A DNA stretch of 64,000 bases from Azolla caroliniana (lineage: Eukaryota; Plantae; Polypodiophyta), in NCBI GenBank assembly GCA_043228905.1, contig JBHGNT010000006.1, forward strand, positions 21,390,001 to 21,454,000. Direction: 5' to 3'. The notes under the pieces are model-generated. The model saw only the letters and a list, made by a program, of their open reading frames with translations. It made no database searches and was not told the DNA's origin. Positions 11,569 through 64,000 of this stretch are shown piece by piece. Each line of letters opens with the position of its first letter. Within the stretch, counting starts at the first letter, position 1. The translations under genes and the position numbers were made by a program.

Positions 11569-14500
11569 TATCATGAAAATCCGTAACTATGTGCGGATTG
11601 TGAGGCGGAACCGCGAGGTTTATGAAATGGATGGAATTAGGGCTCACACGGACAACATGATTGCTCGATCATTTTCTGAAAAGAAGAGGTGCATGGCCAA
11701 GCATGATTTACACACAAGATAAGATACAAAAGTTTGAATGCCTTTGTGAAAGGAGAAGTGCATAAGCAAGCATGTGTCCGAAACATGATATCAGTTAGGT
11801 CAAGATTTGAACTGTTGACCTCTTATATTATAGTCAAGTGTTGTGTTGTAACCAACACACCTAAATACATAATTATAGGTTATCTATTCAATTTCTACGA
11901 GTTTTTAGAAAGTTCTCGAACTAGAAGGTCTAGAGAATTCTTTAATATTCTCCAAAATATTCTAATGCATGTACTTCAACTCACAATATAAATACTTGTA
12001 ACCTTCGTGGTCCCTTTCAAGGGATTCAACGCCAGTCATTGACACATCAATTCTCTATAGAGTAATCTAGAACACTCTAGAATATTCTAGGGTAATCTAG
12101 TAATCTAGAATGTTTATAGTGTATTCTAGAAGGTTCTAGCATATAGAACACTCTAGAATATTCTAGGACATTCTAGAATATATAGTAATTCAGAATATCC
12201 TTATGATATTAGATTATATATTCTACAAACAATACGCATAAACTTGTTATGACAATGGTTAAGGATTTGACATGTGTATAACAAGTTTGTGGGTTCAATT
12301 CTTTTCGAGACAAAATGTGAGTGTCATCATGACACTATCCGAGACAAAATGTGAGTGTCTTCATGACACTATCCCCCTTCTTCGACGACAAGTCTCATGG
12401 GTCATAAGATTCGTAGTAGTACCTCGTTTATGAGGATATTCGCGATGAAATGCGGTGACCATGTCCGCGGCATTGGAAAGATTTGCAACAAGTTCCCAAG
12501 TTCGATCGTTGGGGGTATAGCCTAGCCAATCAACCAAGTAATACAACTTGTTGCGCATGATTTTAGAATCGAGAATGGCAGCGACCTCAAATTCGGGTCC
12601 TTCCAAGAACTCAACTGGTGGCAGAGGAGTTGTAATACGGCCCGGAATTGAATTGTTGGTGTAAGGTTCTAAAAGGGATACGTGGAACACCGGATGGAGG
12701 CACATGTGCGGAGGGAGGCCAAGACGATATGCAACATCACTTATCTTACCAGTGATCATGTACAGGCCAAAACGTTGGTAATCCAATTTACCACAAGGCC
12801 GAGTAGTCTTGATGTTGTTTTGGAGAAGCCATACAAGATCCTCAACACAGAATTTTTTGGAGGAATCTAGGTGATGACCATCCGAAAGCCTCTTGTGTGT
12901 AACTTGTGCATCATGTAAATTGTGAAGAATGGAAGTGTGAATTTCTTGGAGGTGACTAAGATGATCTGCAACAGCATGGTTGGTAGGCACTTGTGGATGC
13001 GCATTCATTGTACACCGAGGATGGCGGCCCGTATTTGCCAAAAATGGGGAATATCTCGTAAAAGAATGGACCGAGTTGTTGTAAGCGAATTCAGCCAAGT
13101 GCAGAAAATCAACCCAATCATCTTGTTGGTAGTTGATGAAACAACGAAGATATTGCTCCAATGTCTAGTTGGTACGCTCAGTTTGGTCGTTAGTCTCAAG
13201 GTGATAGCCCGAAGAAAGCTTAGCCGAAATTTGGAGAAGTTTGAGTATATGCTTCCAAAACATTGAAATAAATTGTGAACCCCGATCACTAATAATATCA
13301 TCTGGAAGACCATGGTGCTTAAATACCTCCCGCATAACTAGATCGACCACCTCTTGACTAGTAATAGACTTCGTACATGGCACGAAATGTGCCATTTTGG
13401 TAAGTCGATCAACCATTATGAGAATTGCATCATAACCTTTTGAAACTGGGAGATCGGTAATGAAATCCAAGGATATAGACTTCCAAGGATTTTCTGGAAT
13501 GGGAAGTGGTTGTAGTAAGCCATAGGATCGGTGTCGAGGACTCTTTGATCGACAACAGGTATCACAGTTGTGAACATACTCCTCAACAAAATGACAAAGG
13601 TGAGGCCACCAATATTGTCGAGAAACTAATTCTAGAGTTTTGTGAACTCCAAAATGTCCAACCATTGGTGAGTCATGGCAATGTTGTAGAACTTGTAGTC
13701 GTGGGGGACCATTAGGAACATACAATAGGTTTTGTCGAAATAGAAAACCACCATGCCAATAGAACAAACGATAGTCTTGCTGAGGGACAATATGATCCAA
13801 AACCTCCTTGGCAAATTCATCAGTGGCCATATGATCTCGAATGGAATCAAGAAGAGTGGAATCTTCAAGTCTTGTTATGGCATTAACTACCATTAATCGT
13901 CGGCGATTAGGACCCAAAAGGATTTGTTTTTGATGCTCAAATGCAGGTTCCCCTGGACGAAGTTCCATATAAGAGCATCGAGAAAGTGCATCTGCTTTGC
14001 CTTGCTACATCCCAGGGCAATATATGATTACAAAGCCAAAGTGAGTAAAAAATGGCGCCCACCGGGCTTGTCGCAGGACTCGAGCATTTTGGAAATATGT
14101 CAAGTTCTTATGATTATTGTAGACAATGATTTGCTGAGAAAAGCCTTCTAGAAAATGTCGCCATTGTAGAAAACAGTCCACGATTGCAAGAAGTTCTTTG
14201 TCATGGATCTCGTAGTTGATCTCTACAGTTTCAAATTTTCGGGAATGAAAGGTGACAGGGTGTACCTCTCCGTCATCTCTAGTCTGCGACAAGACACTTC
14301 CTAGTGCAAAATCGGATGCTTCAGCTTCAAGGATGAAGCGTTTTGTCGGGTCGACATGTTCTAAGATCAGTGCCGTTGTAAACGCCTGTTTTAAACTTTC
14401 AAATCCCTCGGCTGCATCCGAACTCCAAATGAATGGTTGATTTTTGTGTGTGAGTTGAGTGAGCGGAAGCACGACCTTAGAATAATTTTTAATAAATTTC

Positions 14501-19806: not shown

Positions 19807-20090
19807 TGTCATAGACATATGCCACACCACGGTGAAAGGTAGGGATTGAACCCAAAACCTCTTGGTCTCCATTGGGCAACCCTACCAACTAGGCTACATC
19901 CATCTATGTATCCTGTATAAAATCCAACTTCATGTATGGTAGATTGAACATTGGAAGCTCCTAGCTTGCATGCATCCTCATGCATTCTCTATTCCTAGCT
20001 TGCATACATGCATTCTCTATTCCTATCTTGCATGCATCCTCATGCATTCTCTATTCCTAGCTTGCATGCATCTTCACACATGCATTCTCT
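19807..20090 (+). repeat. truncated copy of the tRNA-bearing solo LTR (complete sister at 51062-51544)
   Basis: Starts TGTCATA after GATAT at the same host site as 51062; tRNA-like module, then 34-bp CATGCA-rich repeats; cut at 20090. Confidence 0.85.
19831..19903 (-). ncRNA. tRNA-derived Pol III module inside an LTR (not a functional tRNA)
   Basis: 73 nt; A box TAGCCTAGTTGG and B box GGTTCAATCCC at tRNA spacing; partial acceptor and T stems; anticodon stem does not pair. Confidence 0.7.
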
Positions 20091-23000
20091 AAACCTTCAC
20101 CCAATCGGGTGGATAGAATAACAAGGATTACAAGTTGCGTACGAAATCTCTAGGTTTTGACTAGAGAAATGTCCTAGCCTCGAGGCAAGAGCCTTGGCTA
20201 CAATCTTCACCCAATTGGGTGGATACAACAATGACCCAGATTATAATTCCTCACCTAACTGGGTGGATGGAAAACCAAAGAAAACGGAAACTAGTGGACA
20301 GGACAGGTGTTGTTCAATCGTGGTTCTTCAATAGCACGAATAGCCCTTGGCAGGTCTCTATATCTGTGACAGTAGTTCAGTCTTCCTCTTGCTCGCGCTT
20401 TCGTTTTCTATTTCTCTCTCTCTATTTTCTGTTTTTGCTCTCTGTACTCTCAGAAAATTAGGTCACACTGTCTCTCTTTATCTTTTCTCTGTTTTTCTCT
20501 TATTGTCTTCTTGTAGTCCAACGTCTATATGTGTGTTCACACACACACAAAAGACACACACCCAAAAAAACATACAAGAAGAAAAAGGCATACATATATA
20601 TATAAATATAAATACAACTAATTATAACTTGCCTTAAGCCTATTCGGCGTTCAGCCGATTCAATGTTGTGGGCTCCACTTGGGTGGACAAGCCCCAACAA
20701 TTCTCCCCCTTCGTCACAAGTGGGGGCACAAGGAAGTTTTCCTTTTGTTTGGAAACTTCAAGCTTCTCCCTTGACAAACTTTTAGTCATCATTTCGGAGC
20801 CATTCTCATTGGTATGTATCTTCTCAATGTGCTTTGACTTAGAGTGAAAGGAAGAATTCTTGCTTAAGTGGATAGCACTTTGGCTATCACAATACAAAGT
20901 GTACCGTTCTTGGGTCAGCCCCAACTCTTGTAGGAATTTCTTTAGCCATAACAATTCCTTACTAGCTTCTGTGGCAGTAATATACTTGGCCTCCGTTGTG
21001 GATAATGCCACACACTTTTGCAATCTCAATTGCCAAGAGACTGCTCCCCCTGCAAAGATCATTAGGTAACCAGATGTAGACTTTCTGGAGTCAACATCAC
21101 CAGCCATATCAGCATATGTATATCCATCTAATATTGTTTGGTTCTTATTGAATTTTAGATAGACTCTTGAGGTACCCCTCAGATATCATAGTATCCATTT
21201 CACTACTTCCCAATGATCTTTTCCACGGTTCGAGAGAAAATAGCTCACTACACCAACTGCATGAGCAATGTCCGGCCTCGTGCATACCATAACATACATT
21301 AAACTACCGACTACAGAGGCATATGGTATTTATTTCATTCCTTCTTGCTCTTCATCACTCGTAGGGCATTGAGTTGAGCTAAGTTTAAAGTGGCCCGTGA
21401 GTGGAGTGTTGACCGGCTTACTCTTAGCCATGTTGAATCTCTCAAGTACCTTCTCAATGTACTTTTCTTGAGACAACCAAAGTCTGTTGCTTGCCCTGTC
21501 CTTGGTTATCTTCATCCCAAGGATTTGCTTGGATGGTCCCAAGTCTTTCATGGAAAAAGATTTGTTGAGTTCCTTTTTCAGATTCTCAGTCTTGTTGGTG
21601 TCTTGACCAACGATCAACATATCATCAACATACAAGAGCAAAATAACAAAATCCTCATCAGGGAATTTCTTGACAAACACACAATGGTCTGTGTTTGTTC
21701 TATTATACCCATGGTTCAACATAAAGGAGTCAAAATTTTTGTACCAAAGTCTAGGAGCTTGTTTTAGGCCGTACAAGCTCTTCTTTAACTTGCATACCAA
21801 GTTTTCCTTACCTTTGACTCCAAACCCTTCGGATTGATCCATGTAAATCTCTTCTTCCAAATCGCCATGGAGGAAGGTGGTTTTTACATCGAGTTGCTCG
21901 ATTTCTAGATCGAGACTAATTGCGATCCCAAGTACAACTCTGATCGAGGACATCTTCACCACTGGTGAGAAAATCTCCTCGAAATCAATTCCCTTTTTCT
22001 GGTTGAACCCCTTCACAACCAATCTTGCCTTGTATCTTGGCTGTGAGCAATGTTCCTCAGTCTTAAGCCTATAAACCCATTTGCTTTTCAACGCTCTCTT
22101 GCCCTTAGACAACTTTACAAGATCATAAGTATGATTGTCTTGCAAACACTTGATCTCATCATTCATGGCGTCAAGCCATTCCTCCTTATGATCATTTACC
22201 ATAGCTTCTCTAAAGATTTTTGGCTCTCCTCCATCTGAAAGCATCACATATTCATGTGGGTTGTATCTAGTAGAAGGTCTTCTTTGTCTCATAGACCTTC
22301 TAACCTCTTCCTCTTTCGGAGGAGCTGCTGAAATGTCACCTAGAGTATGATGGTCATGATTCTGCCCATCATCATCGTCGGCTGCATCATCAACCGTATC
22401 ATCATACTCCTCAGTATCTCCCCCATGACTTTGTGCCTCTGGGGCAGACATTGGGTGTTCGGTGACCGAACAATCAAGGGTGAGATCCGGCATTTCATTT
22501 GGCTCCGGATCTTGTAAGGTTTGATCCTCAAGGAATACCACATCCCCGCTTCTAATGAAATTCTTCTCTATTGGGTCATAAAGTCTATAGCCAAATTACT
22601 CATGGCAGTATCCCAAGAATATGCATGGTTTGGCTTTGTCATCAAGCTTGGATCTTTCATCTTTTGGGATTTGAACGTAGGCCCTACAGCCAAATAGTCT
22701 CAAGTGTTTGTATAACACATCTTTACCTGTCCAAACCCTCTCGGGAACATCGCCAGCCAAGGGGGCTAACGGAGACAGCTTTATGAGGTCAATTGCAATC
22801 CTCATTGCTCCACCCCAAAAGGATTTAGGCAATTTTGAGTGGGATAACATACATCTTATCCGCTCACAAATTGTCCTATTCGTCCTCTCAGCCACACCAT
22901 TGTGGTGAGGTGTTTTCAGGACACTTCGCTCTAGTCTAATACCATGCTCACGACAATATTCCTCAAATCGTCCCTAATATTCACTGCCGTTATCGATACG

Positions 23001-44094: not shown

Positions 44095-44179
44095 ACGAAG
44101 ACCCGGTTCCGGAGCCGGATGACGAAGACCCCGGCTACGGAGCCGGATGACGAAGACCCCGGCTACGGAGCCGGATGAA
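44095..44179 (+). repeat. 28-bp tandem repeat (about 3 copies) in U3, also present in the 3' LTR
   Basis: CGGAGCCGGATGACGAAGACCCCGGCTA repeated. Confidence 0.9.
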
Positions 44180-48763: not shown

Positions 48764-51061
48764 AGGGGGAGTTTGTTAGGATTACGGTCCCTCCGGATGG
48801 GATGGTCGGATGTCCGGGAATCGGGAACGAAGACCCGGTTCCGGAGCCGGATGAGGAAGACCCCGGCTACGGAGCCGGATGACGAAGACCCCGGCTACGG
48901 AGCCGGATGAAGTATGTACCCGGAGAGAGATCCGGATGCGGGGACATATTTGTGATTATGTTTTGCCAAGGGCCCTTGAGGCTATATTTGTAAATAGCCC
49001 GAAAGTCATATGTGTATAAATATGACTTAGGGCAAACAGTTTTAATGTTGTTGCTCATTTTCTGTTTTCCACTTAGAGGGAGCGAAGTGAGAGCAGCCGA
49101 GAGAGAGAGAGAGAGAGAAAGGAAGAGGTCGACGCCTCTGTGTAATACCGCCGTCTGTGGCGAGGACAGCGAGCTCAAGGTCGTCGCCTTGCAGCTCGCC
49201 ATTGTACATTCCCTGCGTATAGTGATAGTTGGAGTCTTGCACTCCCGTGGTTTTTCCCGCTTAGGGTTTTCCACGCTAAACCCTGTGCATTCGAGTCTCT
49301 CTCTGTGTTTTGGATTTACTGCTGCACTGACTCGTGTTTCCTCGGTTGTGGCCGAGAGGAGAAGGTTTGGAAAGCGTCAATTTTTCAACACAATCCGGGT
49401 GGTTGTACCATGTATACCTCCTCTTCTTCCCTTGAAGAAAGATGTTCTTGACATCCATCTGATGGATGTGCCACCCTTTCGTTGCTGCGAGCGTTATCAT
49501 GGTCCAAACAGTTGTCATCTTTGCCACCGGGGCAAAGGTCTCCTCATAGTTGACTCCTTTTGTCTGTGCGTAAGCTTTTACTACGAGTCAACCTTTGTAG
49601 CGGTTGACAGAGCCATTGACATTATACTACACCTTCTATATCCATCTATAGTCGATTTTCTTCTTGTGAGGTGAGTGGGGGGTTAAGATCCCATGTCTTG
49701 TTCTTGCTAAGTGCTTGCATATCCTCGTTCATTGCTTTGACCCATTGTGGATATTTAATACCTTCAACAAAACTTTACGGCTCTTGAACGGTTGCCACAT
49801 TCATCATAAAGGCATAATGGTATGCCATGTGATCATTGTAGCCAAATCTGATGACTAGGTTCTTTTCTCAGTTGGAGCAACAAAGTTCTTTGTTTTCCAT
49901 TGTGAACGCTTTCTTTACTATGGGTGTCATGATGGGAACACCGAATTCATTGTCAATTGTTTGTGCCAACTCATCTACATCACTCTCGTCGGAGTGGTTG
50001 TCCTTGTACTTGGGCATTTTGGCCTTTCCTCTGTCCGATATCGAACTTCGCGATGACATGTTTTGCTCGCTTGTAGGCTCTTGTGATCCACTCAATCTGG
50101 CTGAGATAAGACTCTCCACGGGTATGGCCCTTAGCTATTCATCATTGTCTAGGTTGATTCCAAAATCGGCCATGATTTGTTGGGGCGAAGTTAGGTTAGG
50201 TGCATACCATGATGTTGATTCACCAAACACGACGTTCCGACTCACGCGAAACATTCAAGTAGATGGGTTTAAGCATTTGTAACCTTTCTACTCAAGCGAG
50301 TACCCCATGAGGATGCACTTCTCCAATATTGGGTCAAGCTTTTGCCGCTTCTCATCGAGAATGTGCATGAATGGAATTCAGGCGAATATCCTTACATGGG
50401 ATAGATCCGATTTCTTTCCTTAGGATTTCTTGTTTGGGGTAATCTCGTGGATGTTGGATGTCATACATAGGTTCATTACATAGACAAATGGTGTGCATGC
50501 TACTTTGGCCCAATATGACTTCGACATGTGCTTTTTGTTTCAGCATGACGCTTGCTACTACGAGGATGTGCTGATTCTTTTGTTGCGCTACTCTGTTCTG
50601 TTGCGGTGTATATCGACACACAAACTCTCGTTGAATTCCTTCTTGTTGGAGAAAGGCTGAAAATTCATCAGAAAAATACTCTTTTCCTCCATCCGATCGA
50701 AGACATCGAACATATCAACCCATTTCTTTTTTTACTCTGCTTTTGAACTTTTGAAAGTATATGAATACTTCACTCTTGTGGCGCATCGGATAAATCTAGG
50801 TGTGTTTGGAGATATCGTCAATGAACGTGATGTAGTTTCGGCATCCTCCGAATGTGGCCATCTATGTCAGTCCCTACACATCAGAGTGGACTATGTCTAG
50901 TAGGACTTTGTTCACGTTCCTCTCTTTCGGGAATGGGTGTCAATGTTGGTTGCCGAATTAACATGTTTCACATACTCCATTGACTTCCTTTTCTTTAAAT
51001 GTTTGGGGTCTGATGTGGACTCCTTTTGATTGCATCCACTTGACCTTTTGGAGGTTGATAT

Positions 51062-51544
51062 TGTCATAAACCTATGCTACACCATGGTGGAAGGTAGGGA
51101 TTGAAACCAAGACCTCTTGTCTCCATTGGGCAACCCTACCAACTAAGCTACATCCATCTATTTATCCTTGTATAAAATCCAACTTCATGTATGGTAGATT
51201 GAACATTGGAAGTTCCTGGCTTGCATGCATCCTCATGCATTCTCTATTCCTAGCCTGCATACATGCATTCTCTATTCCTAGCTTGCATGCATCTTCATGG
51301 ATTCTCTATTCCTAGCTTGCATGTATCTTCATGCATTCTCTATTCCTAGCTTGCATGCATCTTCATGCATTCTCTATTCCTAGCTAGCATACATACCTCT
51401 ACCTTTTTTGTATAAATACTTAGGTGCACCATGATTCTAATCAAGGTGAACAATGCCAGTTACAGAATCAGAAGTCAAGTTCTTGTTCTTTTTCTCTCTC
51501 CTAGTTCTTAGTCTCTTCTTGTTCCTACTCTCTCTTCCGTGACA
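51062..51544 (+). repeat. complete 483-bp solo LTR carrying a tRNA-derived module and 34-bp tandem repeats
   Basis: TGTCA...TGACA termini; TSD GATAT/GATGT; splits host integrase WHKRISHI|NLQK; TATAAATA at 51411; about 5 copies of TAGCTTGCATGCATCTTCATGCATTCTCTATTCC. Confidence 0.9.
51086..51157 (-). ncRNA. tRNA-derived Pol III module inside an LTR
   Basis: A box TAGCTTAGTTGG; B box with one change (GTTTCAATCCC); acceptor ATGGATG/CTTCCAC pairs at 5 of 7 positions. Confidence 0.65.
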
Positions 51545-51940: not shown

Positions 51941-52195
51941 TGTCATAAACATATCCAACAGAAGAAGGTGAACCCAAGAACTCATGTTCTTTATCGGGTA
52001 ACCCTACCAATTGAGCTACATATGCATCCTTGTACAAAATCCAACTTCATGTAGTGTAGATTGAACATTGGAAGTTTCTAGCTTGGACACATTCTCATGC
52101 ATTCTCTATTGCATGCATCCTCATGCATACTCTATTTCTAGCTGGCTTACATAGCCCTACCTTCTTGTATAAATACTCAGGGGCACCTTGATTCT
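51941..52195 (+). repeat. independent, 3'-truncated insertion of the tRNA-bearing LTR family; degenerate module at about 51961-52026 (minus)
   Basis: Starts TGTCATAAACATAT; A box TAGCTCAATTGG and GGGTTCAC remnant; same downstream sequence and TATA as 51062; host frame TYEN|RNMSS continues across it. Confidence 0.8.
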
Positions 52196-53270
52196 GTTTT
52201 CATAGGTCAGAGCTCGTCCACCTCGTCCTTGACTAAATCAACCTCTTCTTGAATGATTGCATTCTCTTCTACGATAGCGATGAGCCGGTTCTTTTTGAAT
52301 TGTCGGCGTAGAACATAAAACACAAGGATGGGCTAGATCAAGTTTCCAAATCACTCTAATACCATGTAAAGAATCAAGTGTGATTATGTGGAATGGAATA
52401 GATTAGAGATGTGTGTTATGTGTGTGTGAAAGAGGAGAGAGGAGAGACACAAGATAGATAGGAAAATGAAATACTCAAGATATATATTGACAAGAAGTAG
52501 AGAACAACTACACACAAATAATAAGCACTACAAGGGAGATTAATTGACACTTACAAAATAACAGGAGGGTGCTTTATATAGGTCACCTCTCACTAAACCA
52601 CTCACTCTCTCGAATCTTGGGGAGTGGGCAATCTTATTAATTATGTGTCATAGAGTGTAACTCCTATGATGTATGAGTTATGTTACAAGAATCATTAATA
52701 ATATGTCATAGAATGTGACTCCTAGGACACATTAGTTATATTACATAGTGGTGGTGTGTAACTCTCTAGTGTGTTTACACACTAGGAAGGGTTGAGCTGG
52801 CTTCTCAACATATATGTTTTCTTTTTTAGTCATCACAAGGCTATGCTTAACAACATACAAAAGTCACATAGTTGGACACAATGATGTGCTCTATAGCTAT
52901 AAGTTAAACGGAATAAAAAAATGGAAACCACAACTACGACGAATTGGATACAATAGAGTGTGATTACTAAAAGTTATCATTTTTAAAGTATGCAAATTTA
53001 AATAGAATTAAATTGTAGAGATTTATATCTCATGGTCAATCACGAATATGTGAAAGGTGGGGGATTAATCACATTATTAGCCAAAACTTGTACTTACAAG
53101 ATGGAATTTTTATTTATTTATTTATCCGAAAAAAACACTACTTCGCATTAGTTAGCAAACAATTACATCATAGACCACCAAAAATTCAGCAACCCTCACT
53201 GTGGCCTTCTCATCAAAGTGGACATAGTTCCCACCTCATTTACAACAAAAGTATCCACAACTCCTATAAC

Positions 53271-54026
53271 CTAGTTATTTGTACCATATCTATACATAGT
53301 TCCGAAACATTTATCTTCGTTTGAAGTTATATTCGCCACCCTCAATTCATTGGTTTCTTTCTTCATCATTCTTTCTTTGCAAGATGAGAAGGTCTCTTGT
53401 TCCACACCTTCTTCCGTGGTTATATCATGGTATTGAACCTGGGCCTTTGTATCAACCGTAACATTAATCCCCATTTGTTGGGAGGCTTCTTCTTCCTCGC
53501 TCATCATTTGCTTCAGTTTTTGCTCCTTTTGAAGCTTCTCTTCATCCTCAACTTGCGCCTTTAAGTTCTCGAATGCCTCTTCCATCAAGCCTTCTATGTC
53601 GAGTATTGTTGAACCTTCCCTCTTCGAGTTTTCTTCTTTAGGTGGTAGTTTGTAGTTGCATCCCGTCCTCCTTTCACCATCTGCCATGGGTTGTGTTGTT
53701 GCCGATGAGAATCTTGTCTTCCTCTTATCGTGAAGTCGACATACTCTTTCCACTTTCGTCCAATCTTCTGTGAGGCCATTTGCACCATCATCATCCTCAA
53801 GTCGAATTCCAATGGCATTCCTTTCCTTTCGGTCTATCGATTTCACAAACATTAGGACTTTTTTCACCCCCACCAATCTTTGATCCCGCTCCGAGAGTTG
53901 TGCAAAGGGACACTCGAACTCAACGAAAGCATGCATGGCACTTTGGTGGGTCTTTAATGATGATACCCATTGGTTGAACTCGTATAGTTTGCATCTCTTC
54001 GATTCTTTGTATCTATATGCCTCCAT
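53271..54026 (-). CDS. Gag-like protein, N-terminally deleted paralogue of the 56376 ORF
   Basis: QRLVGVKKVLMFVKSIDRKER..GLTEDWTKVERVCR aligns with QRLVGEDKVLMFVKSIDRKER..GLTEDWAEVQRVCR. Confidence 0.75.
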   Translation of the reverse strand: MEAYRYKESKRCKLYEFNQWVSSLKTHQSAMHAFVEFECPFAQLSERDQRLVGVKKVLMFVKSIDRKERNAIGIRLEDDDGANGLTEDWTKVERVCRLHDKRKTRFSSATTQPMADGERRTGCNYKLPPKEENSKREGSTILDIEGLMEEAFENLKAQVEDEEKLQKEQKLKQMMSEEEEASQQMGINVTVDTKAQVQYHDITTEEGVEQETFSSCKERMMKKETNELRVANITSNEDKCFGTMYRYGTNN

Positions 54027-55273
54027 GAGATATCCTGCTGCTGCCTCGTTTCACGTCGGGTTGACCAAAGATGTCGCGAAAATATGACGAGGATACGCAA
54101 ACTTCAGGTAGGACCCCGTGGCCTCCGACCGGAGGATATCAAATTCGCATGATTATATTAAACAATTAATACAAAATGAGAAAGATTCACAAATTTCATT
54201 AATAAAGAGAAAGAAAGATTACAATCAATCTCAAGATTGAGATTACAAAAAGTTTAGTTAATGGAGATTACTAGAGTAATAGATAAGAAGAAACTAAGAT
54301 ATGGATTCCACAGAGATTTAGGGTTATTGGCTTTGATAAGAGATTATAGTTTTATGAGTTGAATAGCTTCCGTATGGAAAATTAGGGTTAGGAGTAAGAT
54401 GGATTTTCTAAGGAATTTAGGATTTTTAGAGAGATTGCTTTCGTATGGAAATTATGGTTTACTTAAGAGATAACTTCCTTCCCCCATATGGAAATCCGGA
54501 ATTATGAGTGATAGCCCCCTTCTTGATTGATTCACGGATTCTTCTTCTTTTTCCTCTCCTTCCCTTGCATGCGTCCCTCATGGCCTTTACTTTAGTTTTC
54601 TTCGCTTTACTTTAGTTTGTTGCATGATCTCCACCTTTCTGTTGCACACCTTCCACATCACCTTTACTTTTTGCATGCACTCCAACTTTAGTTGCTTACG
54701 TCCACATGGCCTTTACTTTAGTTCTCTTCACTTTACTTTAGTTTGTTGCATGATCCAATCTTCCGTCCGTCCGCGTCCAACCTCGTCCAGTAGCTGGTTC
54801 CGCCCGATTGCCGAATCCCTCGCTAGACGGTTCCATTTTGCATGCCGGCCGGTTCTGATTTTGCTTGTCGGCCGGTTCCGGTTTGATTGCCGACCGGTTC
54901 CGGTTCCTTGCCGGTGTCAGTTCCAGTTTGCTTGCCGACCGGTTCCGATTTTGCTTACCGGCCGGTTTCTAGTTATGCTTATCGGCGAATTTCCGGATTC
55001 CGATTTTGCTTACCGGCCGGTTTCCGATTTTTGGGAACTTGGCCACCATCATCCATCAAGACAAAGTGGCCAAAGTGCTCTTAGCATAAATGAAAATGAG
55101 GGTTCCCAATGTGCTTATATAGCCAAGGCCTAAAGATTCCTATCTATGTGGGATAAATAATAATTCTATTTTCCCTATCTTCCCAAACATCCATCTTCTA
55201 TAACATGCCATTAAGCTAATATAAAGTACTTATTTTATTTTATTTTACATAGTGTGAGAAGATTCACACGACA
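53271..55273 (-). mobile_element. truncated gag-only LTR element: 5' LTR 54072-55273, tRNA-Trp PBS 54051-54067
   Basis: Minus-strand termini TGTCGTG...CGCGACA; PBS TGGTCAACCCGACGTGA; ORF homologous to 56376-58289; no 3' LTR found. Confidence 0.8.
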
Positions 55274-55554
55274 CCGTCCCCGCAGCCAAGATACCAACTT
55301 GAACCATATATTTAACAACACCTCACCGCTAGGGATCTTTTGTTGTTGAAAAACAAACTTACAACGCCTAGTCCAAATATGCCAGACCAATAAACAAGCT
55401 ACCATAATCCATATCTCTTCAAAAAATTCTGAGTTAGTGCCAGGTTGAACTCCAGCATGTTGAAACACCTTGCCACCCTGCACTATAAATCCATGGCCAT
55501 GGGGGTTTAACTATTCAGCCCAGCGTTCCCCTGTTAACTTCAGCCCCTGTACGG
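55274..55554 (-). mobile_element. probable LINE ORF2 C-terminal fragment
   Basis: IWIMVACLLVWHIWTRRCKFVF resembles the W-x-IW-x-x-R-[NC]-x-x-x-F motif after the zf-RVT domain of L1-type ORF2. Confidence 0.55.
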
Positions 55555-55655
55555 TGTCGTAGTGTATTTCGTACACTACGTGAAAAAGTAAAAATAATAT
55601 AACTGATTTAATTACATATAAATAAATAAAATAATATATCAAGATATTTATCACG

Positions 55656-55727
55656 TGCATAGGGCAGGATTCGAACCCTATACCTCCACGTTGACAAACC
55701 CCAACCTTACCATTATGCTACCTTATC
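55656..55727 (-). ncRNA. tRNA-derived Pol III module in LTR U3
   Basis: A box TAGCATAATGG (55710-55720), consensus B box GGTTCGAATCC (55667-55677), 32 nt apart; TTTT 25 nt downstream; cloverleaf stems degenerate. Confidence 0.75.
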
Positions 55728-56341
55728 TTTAGTGTTCTATAAATAGATTTAATAAGTATAATTGCTTTATTTACGCCTACCTTTAGTAAAAGGTAAATCG
55801 TGCATTTTTAGAGTGCGTGAATAGAAAAACGCAAGCAACTAAAAAGTGACTCATGCACATCTAGCGTGCATGAGCACTATATTTAGCAAATAAAAGCAAG
55901 GATTAGAAAAGCATCACATGCACATTTAGTGTGCATGAACATATTAGAAAAAAAAAGCATGTAGCTATGCTTAGTCTCTCCCATCACTACATAAGGATGG
56001 GGAGCACAATGTAATAGGTGTGTGAAATATTTGGAAATTGGATATATTTCCGAAAACACCAACCGATTAATATAATCGTGGGATTCACGAAAATAATATA
56101 ATCTATACTTGTGGGATTCACAAGTTTCTTATATCTTTCTTTCAATCTAAATACATATTCTTATCTAAATATTGATTAATCGAATACAATACACTCGTGG
56201 GATTCACGAAATTTCTATCTCTCTTTCTAATAATCTATTCATTACTAGCCTCATCTCATATTCTTCTTTCTCCTAGTCCAAAACCCCAGTGGTTCCCACC
56301 CGACTCACGCAACGATCCGGAGCCGAAAGGCACGACACAGT

Positions 56342-56358
56342 TGGTGAACCCGACGTGA
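56342..56358 (+). promoter_or_regulatory. primer-binding site complementary to tRNA-Trp (repeated at 59029-59045)
   Basis: TGGTGAACCCGACGTGA is the reverse complement of the plant tRNA-Trp 3' end TCACGTCGGGTTCACCA (recalled sequence), 4 nt after the LTR. Confidence 0.85.
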
Positions 56359-56375
56359 AGGCGGGTGGCAAGGAG

Positions 56376-58289
56376 ATGGAGAATCAACAAGAGGCGATGA
56401 ACATGATGATGATGATGTTCGAACGGATGCTACAAGAACAACGAGCGATGTCAGAGATCACGGCGGTAGTAAAGCGGCTCGTACAACGAAACGGACAATT
56501 CAACGGAAACGATCTGTCACGCTATCTACATGACTACAAAGGGGAGATGATGCGATGTGGGATACCGGAAGGATTGCAAGTGACATCCTTCAGTCGGGTA
56601 GCCACGGATGAGCTACAAGAGAGAATCCACAAGATACGGCAACAAAACTCGACATGGGGATCATTCGAAGAAGCTTTACGAGAGGCATATGATTACAAGA
56701 GATCGAAGGGAAAAGATCGGCGAGAATTCGACGAATGGGTGGCATCGGAGAAGACCCACCGAAGTGCAACACAAGCATTCCTAGAGTTCGAGCATCGTTT
56801 TGCTCGACTCTCGGAGCGGGAACAACGATTGGTGGGAGAAGATAAAGTCCTAATGTTCGTAAAATCGATCGATCGAAAAGAAAGGATGGACATCGGGATC
56901 GAACTCGAAGACGATGAAGGTACGAATGGTCTTACTGAAGATTGGGCCGAAGTCCAAAGGGTATGCCGGAGACATGATGAGAGGAAGATGAGAATCTTGT
57001 CAATGACATGGCCGATGAAGGATGGTCGATTGAAGACAAATGATGGAGCCGATATGAAGGCCGAAATACAACATGATGGTGCGACGGAAGAGGGTGTAAA
57101 ACAAGCTACCCTGTTGTCTTGCGAAAGAACGACGACGAAGGATAAGGCCGATAACCCAAGTGTAGAAGAAGATTTCGGAATACAAGTGTCCGAAACATCG
57201 GGTGAAAAAGGGGTAAGCATAATTGATGTTTGCATAATTGATGCAGTGAAAGAGAGCAAGGAGGACTTGATTGAGGAGGTCACCACGAAAGATGACATCG
57301 AATTGAAGGTGGCTATGGACGAATCAACGACGGATGGCCATATCGAGACTTCCCCACCACTGATTCCAGAGACTGCGGCGGTTGCGTTTGAAAGGCAACG
57401 TGAGACCGAAGAGACGGAAGGTGGCGGAGAGAAAACAAAGGTCGAAGTCGATGCATACGACGGAGAGATAGCCGAGAATATGGCTATGGGTGAAACAATG
57501 GAGGATGATAATACCGAGGATTCCTACCCACTAATTCTAGAGACTTCGGCGGTTGTATTCGAGAACCAACGTGAGACCGGAGAGACAGGAGGTGGCGGCA
57601 AGAAAGGTAAAGTCGGAAGCCGGTTCGGATGGAAGGTGATCCGGACAGGATTCCGATCCGAAAGAAAGCCGAACCGGGTAAAAGAGGATTCGACCGAAAG
57701 TCGACCCGAAAGAAAGCCGAACCGAAAGGAAGAGAATTCGGCCGAAAGACGACACAAACGAGACCGATCCGGAAAGAAGCTAATTCGACTCAACCGGAGG
57801 TTGGACCGGTCGAGGCTGGTGAAAACGAGGAAAAGAAAGCCAACCGAAACCGAAACCGATAGATCGAAACCGGGCCGGAAGGAGACCGACTCAATCAAAA
57901 CCGAACAACCGATTCCGATTCGTCCGAATACGAATCCGATTGGAAGCCGATCAAACCGAAAGTCGATCGGACGAGAGCGATCCGGAAAAAAGTCAAGGTT
58001 GATGAAGACAAGAAAGAGGCCAGTAAAAGACACTACCACGAATGACAAGGGCCAAAAATATGACGAGAGAGAACAAAGAATATGGTGGATCGGATGGCGA
58101 GAATGGTTCGGGTGGAAAGAATGGGTCTACTCAAAATGGAGAGACAAAGTTGACATAGCGGGACAAACAGAGGATGAAGGGGAGACGAGCATCGCCAACT
58201 TCGGCACATACCGGAGGATGTGCGGGTTCGGAGGGGGCGAGTGTCGTAGTGTATTTCGTACACTACGTGAAAAAGTAAAAATAATATAA
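56376..58289 (+). CDS. 637-aa Gag-like protein with long acidic then R/K-rich C-terminal extension; stop lies inside the LTR
   Basis: Uninterrupted ORF from the first ATG after the PBS; FNGNDLSRYL..TWGSFEEALREAY resembles Ty3/gypsy capsid; no zinc knuckle. Confidence 0.75.
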   Translation: MENQQEAMNMMMMMFERMLQEQRAMSEITAVVKRLVQRNGQFNGNDLSRYLHDYKGEMMRCGIPEGLQVTSFSRVATDELQERIHKIRQQNSTWGSFEEALREAYDYKRSKGKDRREFDEWVASEKTHRSATQAFLEFEHRFARLSEREQRLVGEDKVLMFVKSIDRKERMDIGIELEDDEGTNGLTEDWAEVQRVCRRHDERKMRILSMTWPMKDGRLKTNDGADMKAEIQHDGATEEGVKQATLLSCERTTTKDKADNPSVEEDFGIQVSETSGEKGVSIIDVCIIDAVKESKEDLIEEVTTKDDIELKVAMDESTTDGHIETSPPLIPETAAVAFERQRETEETEGGGEKTKVEVDAYDGEIAENMAMGETMEDDNTEDSYPLILETSAVVFENQRETGETGGGGKKGKVGSRFGWKVIRTGFRSERKPNRVKEDSTESRPERKPNRKEENSAERRHKRDRSGKKLIRLNRRLDRSRLVKTRKRKPTETETDRSKPGRKETDSIKTEQPIPIRPNTNPIGSRSNRKSIGRERSGKKSRLMKTRKRPVKDTTTNDKGQKYDEREQRIWWIGWREWFGWKEWVYSKWRDKVDIAGQTEDEGETSIANFGTYRRMCGFGGGECRSVFRTLREKVKII

Positions 58290-58342
58290 CTGATTTAATT
58301 ACATATAAATAAATAAAATAATATATCAAGATATTTATCACG

Positions 58343-58414
58343 TGCATAGGGCAGGATTTGAACCCTATACCTCCACGTTGACAAACCCCAACCTTACCAT
58401 TATGCTACCTTATC
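58343..58414 (-). ncRNA. tRNA-derived Pol III module in the second LTR
   Basis: Copy of 55656-55727; B box reads GGTTCAAATCC, still consensus. Confidence 0.75.
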
Positions 58415-59350
58415 TTTAGTGTTCTATAAATAGATTTAATAAGTATAATTGCTTTATTTACGCCTACCTTTATTAAAAGGTAAATCGTGCATTTTTAGAG
58501 TGCGTGAATAGAAAAACGCAAGCAACTAAAAAGTGACTCATGCACATCTAGCGTGCATGAGCACTATATTTAGCAAATAAAAGCAAGGATTAGAAAAGCA
58601 TCACATGCACATTTAGTGTGCATGAACATATTAGAAAAAAAAAGCATGTAGCTATGCTTAGTCTCTCCCATCACTACATAAGGATGGGGAGCACAATGTA
58701 ATAGGTGTGTGAAATATTTGGAAATTGGATATATTTCCGAAAACACCAACCGATTAATATAATCGTGGGATTCACGAAAATAATATAATCTATACTTGTG
58801 GGATTCACAAGTTTCTTATATCTTTCTTTCAATCTAAATACATATTCTTATCTAAATATTGATTAATCGAATACAATACACTCGTGGGATTCACGAAATT
58901 TCTATCTCTCTTTCTAATAATCTATTCATTACTAGCCTCATCTCATATTCTTCTTTCTCCTAGTCCAAAACCCCAGTGGTTCCCACCCGACTCACGCAAC
59001 GATCCGGAGCCGAAAGGCACGACACAGTTGGTGAACCCGACGTGAAGGCGGGTGGCAAGGAGATGGAGAATCAACAAGAGGCGATGAACATGATGATGAT
59101 GATGTTCGAACGGATGCTACAAGAACAACGAGCGATGTCAGAGATCACGGCGGTAGTAAAGCGGCTCGTACAACGAAACGGACAATTCAACGGAAACGAT
59201 CTGTCACGCTATCTACATGACTACAAAGGGGAGATGATGCGATGTGGGATACCGGAAGGATTGCAAGTGACATCCTTCAGTCGGGTAGCCACGGATGAGC
59301 TACAAGAGAGAATCCACAAGATACGGCAACAAAACTCGACATGGGGATCA

Positions 59351-59499
59351 TGCGGCGGTTATAACAAAGGCAACGACCCCTTCGTCTTTCTCTCTCTCTC
59401 TCTCTCTCTCTCTTTGTACACAGTTACGCGCTCTAATCTTGCACCAACAAGAAATGACAACATATCTCTAAGTTTGCCCTAAGTCATATTTATACTAAT
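59351..59499 (-). repeat. fragment of a copia family A-like LTR (TATA box and GA tract), interrupted by the gypsy at 59500
   Basis: Reverse complement of TAGTATAAATATGACTTAGGGCAAAC plus (GA)n as in other family A LTRs; left end is internal to the LTR. Confidence 0.7.
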
Positions 59500-62400
59500 T
59501 GTTGTCTGTCGGAATAGTAACCGACGAACAAAAGCGTAGGAATAAGAAATTATATAAGAGCATAACGCATGTAACGGTTCACGCAGGAAGCGTGAACGGC
59601 TAAATAGACCTTGCATATATAAAGGGAAGAAAACCTCTGATGGAGGTGCGTGTAATTTTGGGAATGTAAAGAAACGCCTGATAATAGAATTCTATCTTCT
59701 CTGATTTTCTGTGTATAGCTACGGCTAATTCAGTGTGTGTGTCTTGAATACCTAAGCGTTTGAGTACGTAAGTGTAACCCCTGATAGGGATTCGGTTGTA
59801 GCCGTCTCCCCTTATACGCTGATAGGTTACAGGGGTTCTTCCCTTACGCATTACGCTTAAACACCTGTTCGTTGTTCCACACCCACTTTGAGGTGTAGGT
59901 CGAAGGACTGACCGCAGACTGTCTTCCTAAACGGCAACACTTTTGGCACGCTTGGGAATCTGTGTTTTCTCATAGACGAGCAACAACGAATGGATGTTTA
60001 GCCGTAGACGACCCAGAGAACCAACACGACAAGACCGGCGAATAACAAGGTTCGTCACACGCCAGGCAGAAGAACGCGCACGGCAAAAGTCGCGCCTCAG
60101 CGACCCCAGTACTACCTGTCGTGAGTGCAAAGAGGGTTCTTCGCTCCCCAAATACCTCAACGAGACACGGGGACCACACTCACTACAGCCACCCTGTGGT
60201 CTTTCCCGACCCGCCGTAGCTCCCACTATGGCCTTTGCCTACCCCCGCTTTAACGGCGAAACCGATGCCGCAACTCATATTCGCATGTTCCTGAATGTCT
60301 GGAATGCGAACCACATGGCGCAGAATCTCTCCGAGACGGTGGCACACCAGTCGAAAATGACGGAGTTCGGATTAACTTGAGATGGGCGTGCGGCGTTTTG
60401 GCATTAACAGATGGATTTACCAGCCATAACAACCTTCGATCAGCTGCAGTTTGCTTTCTTGCAATTCTTCCATCGGAGGGTTCCACAACACGAGATTCTC
60501 GGGCAATTTTATACAATTAAGCAACTACCGACCGAGATGATAGCGGACTTCAGCTTACGTTTCCAAAATTTACGATGGAAACTGGAACGAAGCCCCGCGG
60601 AGGACGACGTCAAGCAATCCAGTGCACGATTTGCTTGAGCTTGGGGCATTCCGCAGTGGAGTGCAATATGCGAATCCACTGCCCAATCTGCCACTCGAAG
60701 GCTCACACAATCGACCAATGCGAGTACAATATGTTAAACAGAGCCACTCCCGTAGTCCGCAACATGGACACACAACGTCAACCGCACCGGGCTGAACAAA
60801 GGAGGCAAGAAGACCGACCCCGGTATAAGGATCGCAACCTGCAGGAGGACCGGTACAACCGGAATCGCCGGAACCACAACGACTCTGAGGAGGACAACCT
60901 AGAGGACGAGGATTATTGTGGACATCCGAGTTACGCCAAAGGGGGTGGGCACTACAAGAATCAACGGCCGACAAACAAACGGGGCGGCTTCAATGGCTAT
61001 CGGGGTAAGCCACGACAATGTAGGGATCACCGGCGTTACGACGAAAGCTTGGGGGATGAGCGGCACCACGAACAACGACGGGACCAACAGCAGCCACCGC
61101 GTACGTTCCGACAAACAAGGCCGGACCGCGAAGAGCAAGTAGCACCAAGAGAGCGGCACACAACACCTGGAGCCGAGAAGGGAGAATGAAGCATCCATTG
61201 TTTTATTTGTCAACAACCCAAACATTATGCCACGCAATGCCCAGCATGCAAGGGAAAGGGGCCCGCTGTCAATACGATTACGGCGGAGGTGCAACAACTC
61301 ACGACACTCCAGCAAACAAAAACAGCGGATTGGGTTGCGCAAGACGAGGTACACCGAGAATGAAAGACCGGCTCCGGACCCCATTTGGCAGGCGTTAACA
61401 GGCTGTGAAATAACATGCAAGGGAAAGGGGCCCGCTGTCAATACGATTACGGCGGAGGTGCAACAACTCACGACACTCCAGCAAACAAAAACAGCGGATT
61501 GGGTTGCGCAAGACGAGGTACACCGAGAATGAAAGACCGGCTCCGGACCCCATTTGGCAGGCGTTAACAGGCTGTGAAATAACGTTAACCATGGAAAAAC
61601 TGCTACAGCTAGTTCCACGTTTCCGCCAGACCATGATAGAACAGGTGACAGGCATACCCGGGGCAAGTGTCGCCACAAACTTGACAGACGTCAATGATGG
61701 ACCGCCGGTGGTGGATCAGCACAACCCGACTATTACAGTAATATTGCAGCGATAGGAAGTTCATGGATGCGTAATCGACGGCGGCTCAGGCGTCAATGTA
61801 ATTAGCGCGAAAACTTGCGAGCAGTTAGGCATTTCCGAATGGGAGGTGTGTCCATTCTGGCTCCGCATGGCAGATACCTACTCAGTGCGACCATTGGGGT
61901 TAATTCGCAAAATAGGCATCATCGTGGGTGGACACCGCTTCGACATCTCGGCGGTCGTCCTCGCAAAATAGGCGACCCCAAGAGTGTACCTTGTGCTTCT
62001 GGGCAGACCATGGCTTCGAATAGCAAATATCAAGAAGAGCTGGCAACACGAGTGTATCAGTTTCTGGCATGGACGCACCAAGGTTCACATACCGACGGAA
62101 GGCAGCACGCCTCAACCTAAGGGTATAACACCGTTATACGTGGAGGACATAAATATGTTGGCCGGGGTAGAGGATGCAGAATTGGAGGCATACCTCGACG
62201 AACACCCTCGGATTATTCCGCTGTTCGAAATAGATGTCATCGCAACCGCGACAGAATATGCCACGACCACTATTCCCAACGACGAGCCTTACGAACCAAA
62301 CCCAGAGTCCATATTGGAACTCAGCAGAGCATGGGCGGCGTTCGAAAGGGAAATGGAGATTTCACGACGAGTCACCGCTTCTGCCCTCGAAGAAGTAAAT

Positions 62401-64000
62401 GTGGGTAAGGAATCAGAGCCCCGGTTCCTCTCCATCGCAAAGGAATTAAGGCCGGACCAGAGAGTCACGATGATCGCACTACTCACGGAATATAAAGATG
62501 TGTTCTCTTGGGCTCACGAGGACATGAAGGGGTTAGATCCCAAGTTCTATCAGCATAAGATCAATTTAGCAACTGACGCGAAACCCGTCCAGCAACGCCG
62601 CTACCGCATGAACCCCAATTACGCGACCCGCGTGAAAGAAGAAATTGACAAGCTCCTGAAGGCGGGGTTCATACGACCAGTTAAACAAGCAACATGGCTA
62701 AGCCCGATAGTGGTTGTCCCAAAGAAAAACGGCAAAATACGGGTATGCATAGATTACCGAAAATAAAACGTCATAACCATTACGAACGCATTTCCCTTAC
62801 CCTTCACCGATAGTGTGCTGGACGCCGTCGTAGGCCATGAGATGTACAGTTTCTTAGATGGCTTTAGTGGCTAGAACCAGGTACGCATGCATCCCGAATA
62901 CCAGGAGAAGACGGCGTTTGTCACAGACTGGGGAGTATATGTGGCAGTCGTCATGATGTTCGGGCTAAAGACAGCGCCGGCAACATTTCAACGAACAATT
63001 ACGGAGATCTTTGGGGAATACATTCCGGTGTTCATGCATGTTTTTCTAGACGACTTTGTGGTATATGGGAAAACAATAGACCATTTTATGCACTTACGAT
63101 TGTGCCTTGAACGTTGCCGCACTGCACGCTTAAGCCTAAATCCCGCGAAATGTGCCTTCGGCGTGATCAGCGGAACTCTCTTGGGCCACATAGTCAGCAA
63201 GGAGGGAATAGCAGTCGACCCAAACAAGATCTCTGCGATTACGCAAGCCAAAACTCCGACAAACGCCAAATCTCTTAGCCGGTTTTTAGGACAAATACGG
63301 TGGCACAGTCGGATGATACGGTATTTGGCGGACTTCCCCACGCCGTTACACGTTGCCATACATTGGACTCCGTTCCAATGGACTGCAATGGAGGATAAGG
63401 CCTATGAGGCACTTAAGATAATGCTCACACAGGCTCCCGTCGTACAACCACCAGTTTGGGCGAAGCCATTCCACGTGTTCGTCGACGCCTCGGATATAGC
63501 AATAGGAAGCGCACTAATGCAGCTCACCGAACCAAATTGGTACAGGCCAGTATACTACGCGAGTCGTAAATTGTCAGTAGCAGAGCGTAACTATTCCACA
63601 ATAGAGCGGGAGGCGCTAGGGATGATCTATAGCATCAATAAATTCCGACACTATTTATTAGGAAGGAAATTCACGTTCCACGTGGATCATTCGGCACTAC
63701 TGTATTTGGTGGAGAAACAAGCTCTGACAAGGAAATTGGCGCGGTGGATGCTGCTGCTCCAGGAATTCGATTTCGTAATTTAGCACTGACTAGGGACGCA
63801 ACATGCAGTGGCGGATGTTTTGAGCAAACTCGAGAATGGAGAAACAGTACAGAAAGACGACGACGATTTTCCGAACGCCGACATCCTACGAGTAGCGACA
63901 CTTGCAGAAAAAACGGAATCGACCTTTCCGGACCGGTGGCTTATGGAAATGATGTACTTTTTAACTACAGGACTGCCTCCACCACAATTACGCACGGACG
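59500..64000 (+). mobile_element. degenerate Ty3/gypsy element running off the window (5' LTR 59500-59939; gag, PR, RT, RH)
   Basis: TGTTGTC...GGCAACA; PBS-like TGGCACGC at 59944; VIDGGSGVNVI, PVQQRRYRMNP, FLDDFVVY, FHVFVDASD, NYSTIEREAL; several stops. Confidence 0.9.
61245..61582 (+). repeat. 169-bp tandem duplication between gag and protease
   Basis: 61245-61413 repeated at 61414-61582 with no difference seen. Confidence 0.9.

What the first reader, a model, noticed from the sequence alone, without database searches (positions are those of the whole stretch)
55656..55727. LTRs carrying an antisense tRNA-derived Pol III promoter: a possible tRNA analogue of Cassandra
Seen: both LTRs of the 55555 element contain, about 100 nt from the LTR start on the opposite strand, a 72-nt tRNA-shaped sequence (second copy 58343-58414). 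It has A box TAGCATAATGG, consensus B box GGTTCGAATCC 32 nt later and a TTTT 25 nt downstream. The promoter boxes are intact while the cloverleaf stems have decayed. Known: A+B boxes recruit TFIIIC/Pol III; Cassandra TRIMs carry 5S rRNA-derived Pol III promoters in their LTRs; tDNAs act as chromatin barriers in yeast and mammals. Inference: the module is copied as part of the LTR and may be kept for promoter or TFIIIC function, giving a ~100-nt antisense RNA or insulating the element from silencing. I do not know of a described plant family with this layout, but cannot search.
Basis: partly seen in the sequence, partly recalled or inferred. Interest (0 to 1): 0.85.

Follow-up and report, generated by a model that had tools for sequence, protein, structure and literature searches.

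The report
Backward tRNA promoter inside retrotransposon ends
The terminal repeats of a young, multi-copy plant jumping gene carry a decayed tRNA-like unit with intact polymerase III promoter boxes that points backwards, so it cannot be the element's own promoter as in Cassandra or Helenus and is more likely a captured, optional protein-binding site, a layout that appears to recur in two other repeat families in the same window.

Summary
Both 783-nt LTRs carry, on the minus strand, A and B boxes 32 nt apart (23.7 bits; 0 of 4000 shuffles reach it), while the cloverleaf is gone (11 of 21 pairs; ARAGORN and Rfam negative). The element is a young Gag-only LTR retrotransposon with a Phygy-type primer site and flanks, in a tandem dimer. 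A tRNA analogue of Cassandra is already described (Helenus, Kojima 2024), and this scan noted similar cases on other DNA. This element is not Helenus: it is 3.5 kb, coding, and the module is antisense in U3, so it cannot make the element's RNA. Across three diverged LTRs the boxes are better kept than the spacer (18/22 versus 17/32, p=0.03). Against an essential role, 30-38% of contig depth in four runs breaks the B-box cytosine, and a sister family lacks the module. Weaker antisense A+B modules lie near the LTR tip in 2 more of 13 families in the window. Best reading: a captured tRNA/SINE head kept as a dispensable TFIIIC site (0.45); passive fossil 0.30. Transcription is untested.

The parts
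55656..55727 (-). tRNA-derived module, copy 1 (72 nt, stems decayed, loop and spacing signatures kept)
55710..55720 (-). A box, copy 1; matches T, G, A, G at positions 1, 3, 7, 11 of the consensus quoted in PMC11724288
55667..55677 (-). B box, copy 1
55628..55631 (-). first TTTT downstream of the module; not above chance in this A+T-rich LTR (first T5 at 55594-55590)
55555..56337 (+). LTR 1, 783 nt, TGTCGT...ACGACA, rich in short hairpins; left flank ACGG (NCGN)
55988..55995 (+). inferred Pol II TATA position (TACATAAG here, TATATAAG at the same place in L006); puts the module in U3, about 260 nt upstream
   Evidence: inference
56342..56358 (+). primer-binding site; tRNA-Trp type by recall, the dominant type in Phygy
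56376..58289 (+). intact 637-aa ORF, Gag-like N-terminus (lead only), no RT, integrase or Pfam hit; stop lies inside LTR 2
58230..58241 (+). polypurine tract
58242..59024 (+). LTR 2, 781 of 783 identical to LTR 1; shared LTR of a tandem dimer
58343..58414 (-). module, copy 2 (B box with G57>A, still within consensus)
59029..59350 (+). second primer site and start of a second gag copy, cut off by unrelated LTR-element sequence at about 59351
51062..51544 (+). family F2 solo LTR (TGTCA...TGACA, 5-bp flanks GATAT/GATGT) with an antisense A+B module, A box at 51150 on the minus strand; LTR orientation inferred from a TATA motif
19807..20091 (+). F2 LTR, partial copy; antisense module, A box at 19896, B box intact
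51941..52200 (+). F2 LTR, diverged partial copy; antisense module, A box at 52018
12248..12305 (+). weak A+B candidate, antisense, within the first 120 nt of the 3' LTR (starts at 12368, minus strand) of a chromodomain-bearing Gypsy (family H)
54073..55273 (-). LTR of sister family F4 (same primer-site type, NCGN flank, Gag 58% identical over 149 aa) with no module: the negative control

Best explanation
The module is a tRNA-type A-box/B-box unit fixed backwards near the outer end of the LTR of a Gag-only retrotransposon family, likely captured from a tRNA-derived SINE head, and it likely persists because binding of the Pol III factor TFIIIC there helps copies of the element without being required. 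Shown: the boxes, their spacing, the loss of the cloverleaf, the antisense orientation and inheritance with the LTR. Inferred: one ancient insertion into U3 was copied to both LTRs at each round of reverse transcription; the element itself is transcribed by Pol II from a TATA about 260 nt downstream and mobilised in trans by a Phygy-type Gypsy; TFIIIC on the boxes would keep the U3 edge open or bounded against flanking silent chromatin; any Pol III RNA would be about 100-135 nt, end inside U3 and be a by-product.
For: Boxes far beyond chance. In three LTRs about 73% alike in this part (window, L003, L006) 18 of 22 box positions are identical in all three against 17 of 32 in the spacer (one-sided Fisher p=0.028) and 28 of 50 in the rest of the module (p=0.031); the two boxes are the best-kept 11-mers outside the LTR-tip hairpin. 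The spacer is 32 nt in 3 of 3. Both L006 B-box changes fall on free consensus positions. L003's LTR is shortened to about 300 nt yet keeps the module. T8, A9, A14, T16, G18, G19, G52-T55 and A58-C61 show no variant at 10% or more in any of 4 runs. Antisense A+B modules within 170 nt of the LTR tip occur in 3 of 13 LTR families examined.
Against: Among copies the boxes are not spared: 8 of 22 box positions and 10 of 32 spacer positions vary at 10% or more. C56>T, which breaks the GTTC core, makes up 38, 32, 38 and 30% of depth in the four runs, more than the tolerated G57>A at the same CpG (18, 18, 7, 11%; by distinct contigs 69/61/85/96 versus 45/41/60/77); the tool warns that contig depth is a rough measure. 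G10>T reaches 21% and 84% in two runs. L003 has G18>A. Sister family F4 has no module (best 2.9 bits). Two of three F2 copies have a broken B box. The between-LTR test rests on three sequences. No binding or chromatin data.
Confidence: 0.45

Rival explanations
1. Passenger fossil: an old tRNA-SINE head landed antisense in U3, where it did least harm, and is copied with the LTR without doing anything.
For: C56>T is common and exceeds G57>A in all four runs; F4 and 9 other families do without a module; Kojima reports that 'not a few' Repbase LTRs contain part of a tRNA; a T-rich stretch after the module could be a SINE tail.
Against: Boxes better kept than the spacer, and spacing fixed, across LTRs about 27% diverged; the hypermutable CpG of the B box is intact in the youngest copy and in L003; same position and strand in more than one family.
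Confidence: 0.3
2. The working part is RNA: Pol III makes a 100-135-nt antisense RNA, or the sequence is kept as a rod-like hairpin that replaced the cloverleaf, acting on the element's own transcript or silencing.
For: Both boxes are present, as Pol III initiation needs. A helix joining the bases after the A box to the end of the B box is predicted in F1 and F2 alike (94% of cells paired in 6 sequences). Foamy viruses carry Pol III small-RNA cassettes in U3 (passages of PMC6950176).
Against: That helix has no two-sided change and was derived from the same sequences. Folding z-scores of 7 module copies run from +0.28 to -2.63, only two below -1.1; the 72-nt module gives -0.49. The terminator is at chance level.
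Confidence: 0.17
3. Cassandra/Helenus mode: the module is the Pol III promoter that makes the element's genomic RNA.
For: Same kind of promoter boxes in both LTRs of a non-autonomous element.
Against: Primer site, ORF and polypurine tract are on the plus strand, the module on the minus strand; a minus-strand transcript meets TTTT after 25 nt; the unit is 3.5 kb and coding, against 311-1263 bp for Helenus.
Confidence: 0.03
4. Chance resemblance: the B-box-like stretch is one more short hairpin in a hairpin-rich LTR and has no tRNA ancestry.
For: No tRNA detector recognises it; the LTR has many short palindromes; no parent tRNA was identified.
Against: 0 of 4000 LTR shuffles and 0 of 60 window shuffles reach the score; the spacing equals that of class I tRNAs (31-33 nt); a Y-U-NNN-R anticodon loop and an AGGT variable loop fall in register.
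Confidence: 0.05

Closest known systems
Helenus (TRIMs with a tRNA-derived sequence in the LTR; TRIMp3; Kojima 2024, PMC10886601; read parts 1-4 and 6 of 6 of the text, supplement passages and part 8 of 11)
   Same: Non-autonomous LTR element; tRNA-like sequence in both LTRs with boxes A and B kept and no functional tRNA; primer site and polypurine tract; proposed origin by SINE insertion into an LTR; one plant family known (Selaginella).
   Different: Helenus is 311-1263 bp and non-coding, with the tRNA part in sense in 21 of 21 LTRs I read (by eye). This element is 3,470 bp, has 783-nt LTRs, a 637-aa ORF, the module antisense, and Phygy-type 4-bp NCGN flanks where plant Helenus has 5-bp TSDs.
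Cassandra (5S rRNA-derived Pol III promoter in the LTR; passages of PMC10853983 and PMC10886601)
   Same: Pol III internal promoter boxes kept while neighbouring bases drift with fixed spacing; tandem arrays occur.
   Different: 5S type-1 promoter, not tRNA type-2; it replaces the Pol II promoter and makes the element's RNA; the element is a short non-coding TRIM.
TR-GAG elements (Gag-only non-autonomous LTR retrotransposons; passages of PMC13570524)
   Same: Two LTRs, primer site, polypurine tract and one Gag-like ORF without RT or integrase.
   Different: No tRNA-type module was mentioned in the passages read; the Gag call here rests on a feature-based lead, not on a Pfam hit.
Phygy lineage of non-chromovirus Ty3/gypsy (Neumann 2019, PMC6317226; passages and one supplementary table row)
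   Same: tRNA-Trp primer site (81% of Phygy) and 4-bp NCGN target preference, matching 4 of 4 flanks seen (window ACGG, L003 CCGG, L006 CCGT, F4 ACGG).
   Different: Phygy elements are 7.7-10 kb with a polyprotein and were defined in Physcomitrella; no RT is available here to place this element in the tree.
Foamy-virus Pol III cassettes in U3 (passages of PMC6950176)
   Same: A short Pol III unit of about 120 nt inside U3 of a coding retroelement, separate from the Pol II promoter.
   Different: Those are shown or predicted miRNA hairpin precursors of animal retroviruses; no such structure or RNA is shown here.

Membership tests
Helenus | tRNA-derived sequence with boxes A and B in the LTRs | tested here: met
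   A box has TRGC and YGG but A, not Y, at the fifth place of the paper's TRGCY
Helenus | TRIM: short (screen cut-off under 1000 bp, longest family 1263 bp) and non-coding | tested here: not met
   3,470 bp with an intact 637-aa ORF (versus 9, 12)
Helenus | tRNA part oriented so as to drive the element's RNA (sense) | tested here: not met
   antisense to primer site, ORF and polypurine tract; the paper's text does not state orientation, but 21 of 21 LTRs read in its supplement are sense
Helenus | primer-binding site and polypurine tract between two LTRs | tested here: met
Cassandra | 5S rRNA-derived sequence (box A, IE, box C) in the LTR | tested here: not met
   no Rfam match in 54000-60000 at E<=1; the boxes are of tRNA type
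TR-GAG | LTRs flanking a Gag (or Gag-protease) ORF, no RT, RNase H or integrase | tested here: met
   single ORF, no Pfam pol domain; an 83% identical homologue is nearest to Retrotrans_gag clusters by features, a lead only
Phygy | 4-bp NCGN target site and tRNA-Trp primer site | tested here: met
   4 of 4 single flanks fit NCGN, though no complete duplication pair was seen; primer identity as Trp is recalled; table row
Phygy | placement by polyprotein domain phylogeny | not testable with these tools
   the element has no RT, RH or integrase, and no autonomous partner was found (no Gag similarity to P0021)
free tRNA-derived SINE | own target-site duplication, tail, and copies outside LTRs | tested here: inconclusive
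   no clear duplication seen by eye; 0-2% of laid contigs run on unlike the LTR, but contigs are short and no genome is held
functional tRNA gene | cloverleaf with paired stems | tested here: not met
   11 of 21 pairs
Pol III transcription unit or TFIIIC site | TFIIIC/Pol III occupancy or a discrete transcript | not testable with these tools
   needs ChIP or stranded RNA data

The most novel reading that the evidence does not exclude
Several unrelated LTR retrotransposon families of this plant lineage (a Phygy-type Gag-only family, a 5-bp-TSD family and a chromovirus) have independently fixed a backward tRNA-type promoter at the outer edge of U3 and use host TFIIIC as a portable chromatin barrier, so that every new insertion carries its own shield against silencing: the inverse of Cassandra and Helenus, where Pol III is the engine.
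Probability: 0.18. Interest if true: 0.78.

Novelty: new variant of a known kind. Interest (0 to 1): 0.42.

Why it matters
Pol III promoters in LTRs are known as engines of tiny non-coding elements (Cassandra, Helenus, Ajax). A backward, U3-edge copy in a long coding element cannot do that job, so if it is kept by selection it points to a second use of tRNA-type boxes by retrotransposons, as a TFIIIC site or small antisense RNA. A high-copy family in which about a third of copies have a broken B box is also a ready natural experiment: intact and broken copies can be compared for TFIIIC binding, methylation and age in one genome. If it is a fossil, it is an ordinary SINE-head relic and a likely source of false tRNA-like calls.

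Tried and rejected
No whole genome is held, so copies inside and outside LTRs could not be counted. No RNA holder listed among 24 runs; run X19 was flagged as probably DNA. ARAGORN, Rfam (6 kb and 161 nt) and a 24-tRNA covariance model do not call the module a tRNA. Parent tRNA not found: the register gives a GTC anticodon, but L003 and L006 differ there and the stem has 1 of 5 pairs; blastn against phages gave only short T-arm matches at E>=0.2; the A+B pattern has 0 exact matches in genome contigs and viral contigs; no plant cytosolic tRNA set was available. No Gag relative in viral contigs. Of 6 metagenome loci only L003 and L006 hold the 5' part of an LTR; L001, L002, L004 and L005 lack that part and were left out of the conservation test. 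The upstream-flank figure (18 of 73) is lowered by L003's deletion and was not used. Contig depth by bin is highest over the B box in the most distant organism, but the tool says contig depth cannot rank parts, so I do not count it. Flank variants are under-listed near the ends of the stretch (55643 appears only), so flanks were not compared there. A B-box-only search is at chance level (19 matches, 14 expected). Common ancestry of the F1 and F2 modules outside the boxes is suggested but unproven (0-140 of 1000 shuffles reach the score in nine pairs; no plant tRNA control). A SINE target-site duplication was looked for by eye and not found convincingly. A candidate in L005 (about 860-930, outside its LTR) and a sense candidate in family H (11862; 14 of 4000 shuffles) were not pursued.

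Full report
The element. The window is a stack of nested plant LTR retrotransposons. The nearest named relatives of a neighbouring Gypsy RT that align well are from liverworts at about 50% identity, so the host is probably a non-seed land plant; this is not established. The element runs LTR 55555-56337, primer site 56342-56358, an intact 637-aa ORF 56376-58289, polypurine tract 58230-58241 and LTR 58242-59024. The two LTRs differ at 2 of 783 places, so the insertion or duplication is young. The second LTR is followed by another primer site and 330 nt of the same ORF, so this is a tandem dimer. The ORF has no Pfam hit; an 83% identical homologue falls nearest to retrotransposon Gag clusters by model features, which is a lead only. 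The primer site is of tRNA-Trp type (recalled) and 4 of 4 flanks seen fit NCGN, the two marks listed for the Phygy lineage (supplementary row of PMC6317226). It is best called a Gag-only, Phygy-type non-autonomous element.

The observation. On the minus strand, 101 nt inside each LTR, lies the 72-nt module as described. A box profile built from 31 of 32 phage tRNAs scores it 23.7 bits, in the top quarter of the true tRNAs' own scores, above all 60 shuffled windows and all 4000 shuffled LTRs. The spacer is 32 nt, as in class I tRNAs, and anticodon-loop and variable-loop signatures fall in register. The stems are decayed: 11 of 21 pairs, no ARAGORN or Rfam call, 8.8 bits with a tRNA covariance model. 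The TTTT is real but uninformative (195 of 416 positions have one as close). A likely Pol II TATA lies at 55988, better preserved in L006, which places the module in U3.

Does it travel with the LTR? Of 6 related loci from metagenome contigs, two hold the 5' part of an LTR, and both have the module at the same place and strand (17.9 and 22.5 bits, 0 of 4000 shuffles each). Four public runs of four organisms hold 559 to 1665 distinct contigs on a 151-nt stretch around the module, and 0-2% of them run on unlike the LTR; in run X1 depth over the module (311,000-374,000) lies inside the range of the other LTR bins from 55562 to 56274 (67,000-540,000). So this is a large, diverse family present in several species, with no sign of a free SINE in excess, though short contigs cannot exclude one.

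Are the boxes under constraint? Between the three diverged LTRs, yes, modestly: 18 of 22 box positions are shared against 17 of 32 in the spacer (p=0.028), and the boxes are the best-kept 11-mers outside the LTR-tip hairpin. Among copies in the four runs the picture is mixed. Fourteen box positions show no variant at 10% or more, but 8 of 22 do, as do 10 of 32 spacer positions. The cytosine of GTTC is changed to T in 30-38% of depth, more than the harmless change on the other side of the same CpG (7-18%). That this cytosine is essential for TFIIIC binding is recalled; the yeast structure shows base-specific contacts at the B box (passages of PMC11724288). Dead copies decay freely, but the asymmetry suggests that lineages with a broken box have amplified. 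A sister family with the same primer type and a 58% identical Gag has no module. The boxes therefore look favoured over long times but not required.

A wider pattern. I scored 17 LTR stretches of 13 families in the window, delimited by self-comparison and by eye, on both strands. Three families have an A+B module, each antisense and within 170 nt of the LTR tip: this family; F2, a 5-bp-TSD family with three copies (7, 8 and 20 of 4000 shuffles); and H, a chromovirus LTR (5 of 4000; it also has a weaker sense candidate, 14 of 4000). After allowing for 26 family-strand tests F2 and H are borderline, F2's orientation is inferred from a TATA motif, and two of its three copies have a broken B box. 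F1 and F2 share some sequence outside the boxes and a predicted helix joining the two box regions, without covariation in that helix; a shared SINE head is a possible source.

How it most likely works. Orientation rules out the Cassandra mechanism: a transcript from this promoter would run towards the LTR tip and end after 100-135 nt. I take the module to be a captured tRNA/SINE head, inherited with U3, and kept as a helpful but dispensable TFIIIC site beside the Pol II promoter (0.45). A passenger fossil (0.30) and a functional antisense RNA or hairpin (0.17) remain open; promoter of the genomic RNA (0.03) and chance (0.05) are unlikely. Binding, chromatin effect and transcription are all inferred.

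Comparison with what is known. Kojima 2024 (PMC10886601) named TRIMs with tRNA-derived LTR sequence Helenus, the twin of Cassandra, with one plant family, and noted that not a few longer Repbase LTRs hold tRNA pieces that were not analysed further. This element fails Helenus on length, coding capacity and orientation. Cassandra's kept boxes and drifting spacers are described in PMC10853983 (passages), TR-GAG in PMC13570524 (passages), Pol III cassettes in foamy-virus U3 in PMC6950176 (passages). Searches for an antisense tRNA-type module in plant LTRs returned nothing relevant; the library lacks most subscription papers, and Repbase, Dfam and SINEBase were not searchable, so absence from print is not shown. 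Nine of the 11 parts of the Helenus supplement were not read in full and may hold antisense cases. Earlier notes of this scan report tRNA-like modules in LTRs of other genomes, one in a coding Copia (unchecked); none matched this sequence.

Verdict. Real and non-random, a new variant of a known kind. The headline idea is already published; what is new is the backward U3-edge placement in a coding element and its apparent recurrence. Interest 0.42.

Noticed in passing
window 51062-51544, 19807-20091, 51941-52200: A second, unrelated LTR family (F2) carries an antisense tRNA-like module 77-89 nt from its tip, in one copy ending in CCA; 7, 8 and 20 of 4000 shuffles reach the three scores. The 51062 and 19807 copies sit at the same site in two copies of a host Copia.
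   Followed up: partly
window 12248-12305 and 11862-11800: The 3' LTR region of a chromodomain Gypsy has a weak antisense A+B candidate near its tip (5 of 4000 shuffles) and a weaker sense one further in (14 of 4000).
   Followed up: partly
window 55555-59350: The element is a tandem dimer sharing its middle LTR (LTR-gag-LTR-primer site-gag), 99.7% identical over 1,114 nt, cut at about 59351.
   Followed up: partly
window 55558-55580, 55845-55880, 55915-55945, 55975-56005, 56076-56215: The LTR is built of many short inverted repeats (a hairpin at the tip, two related CATGCAC hairpins, several GTGGGATTCAC-type units); the tip hairpin is the best-kept part among the three related LTRs.
   Followed up: no
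window 56376-58289: The ORF stays open for 637 codons through a long acidic and then basic, low-complexity tail with DNA repeats, and its stop codon lies inside the 3' LTR. All 17 relatives found are unnamed and from one public source; two carry DUF4100.
   Followed up: partly
window 53271-55273 (minus strand): Sister Gag-only family F4 lies back to back with the element, 282 nt away, with the same ACGG flank and primer-site type but an unrelated 1.2-kb LTR.
   Followed up: partly
L003 2815-3116: LTR shortened to about 300 nt by loss of the middle, keeping the tip hairpin, the module and the 3' end.
   Followed up: no
L005 860-930: A tRNA-like stretch with a perfect 5-bp stem around a TTG triplet lies upstream of the element's LTR, in what looks like host gene sequence (14.3 bits; 9.4 bits with the covariance model).
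   Followed up: no
window 44043-49390: A young Copia with 99.8% identical 617-nt LTRs and long open gag and pol frames.
   Followed up: no
window 61245-61582: An exact 169-nt tandem duplication inside the Gypsy at 59508-64000; either very recent or an assembly artefact.
   Followed up: no
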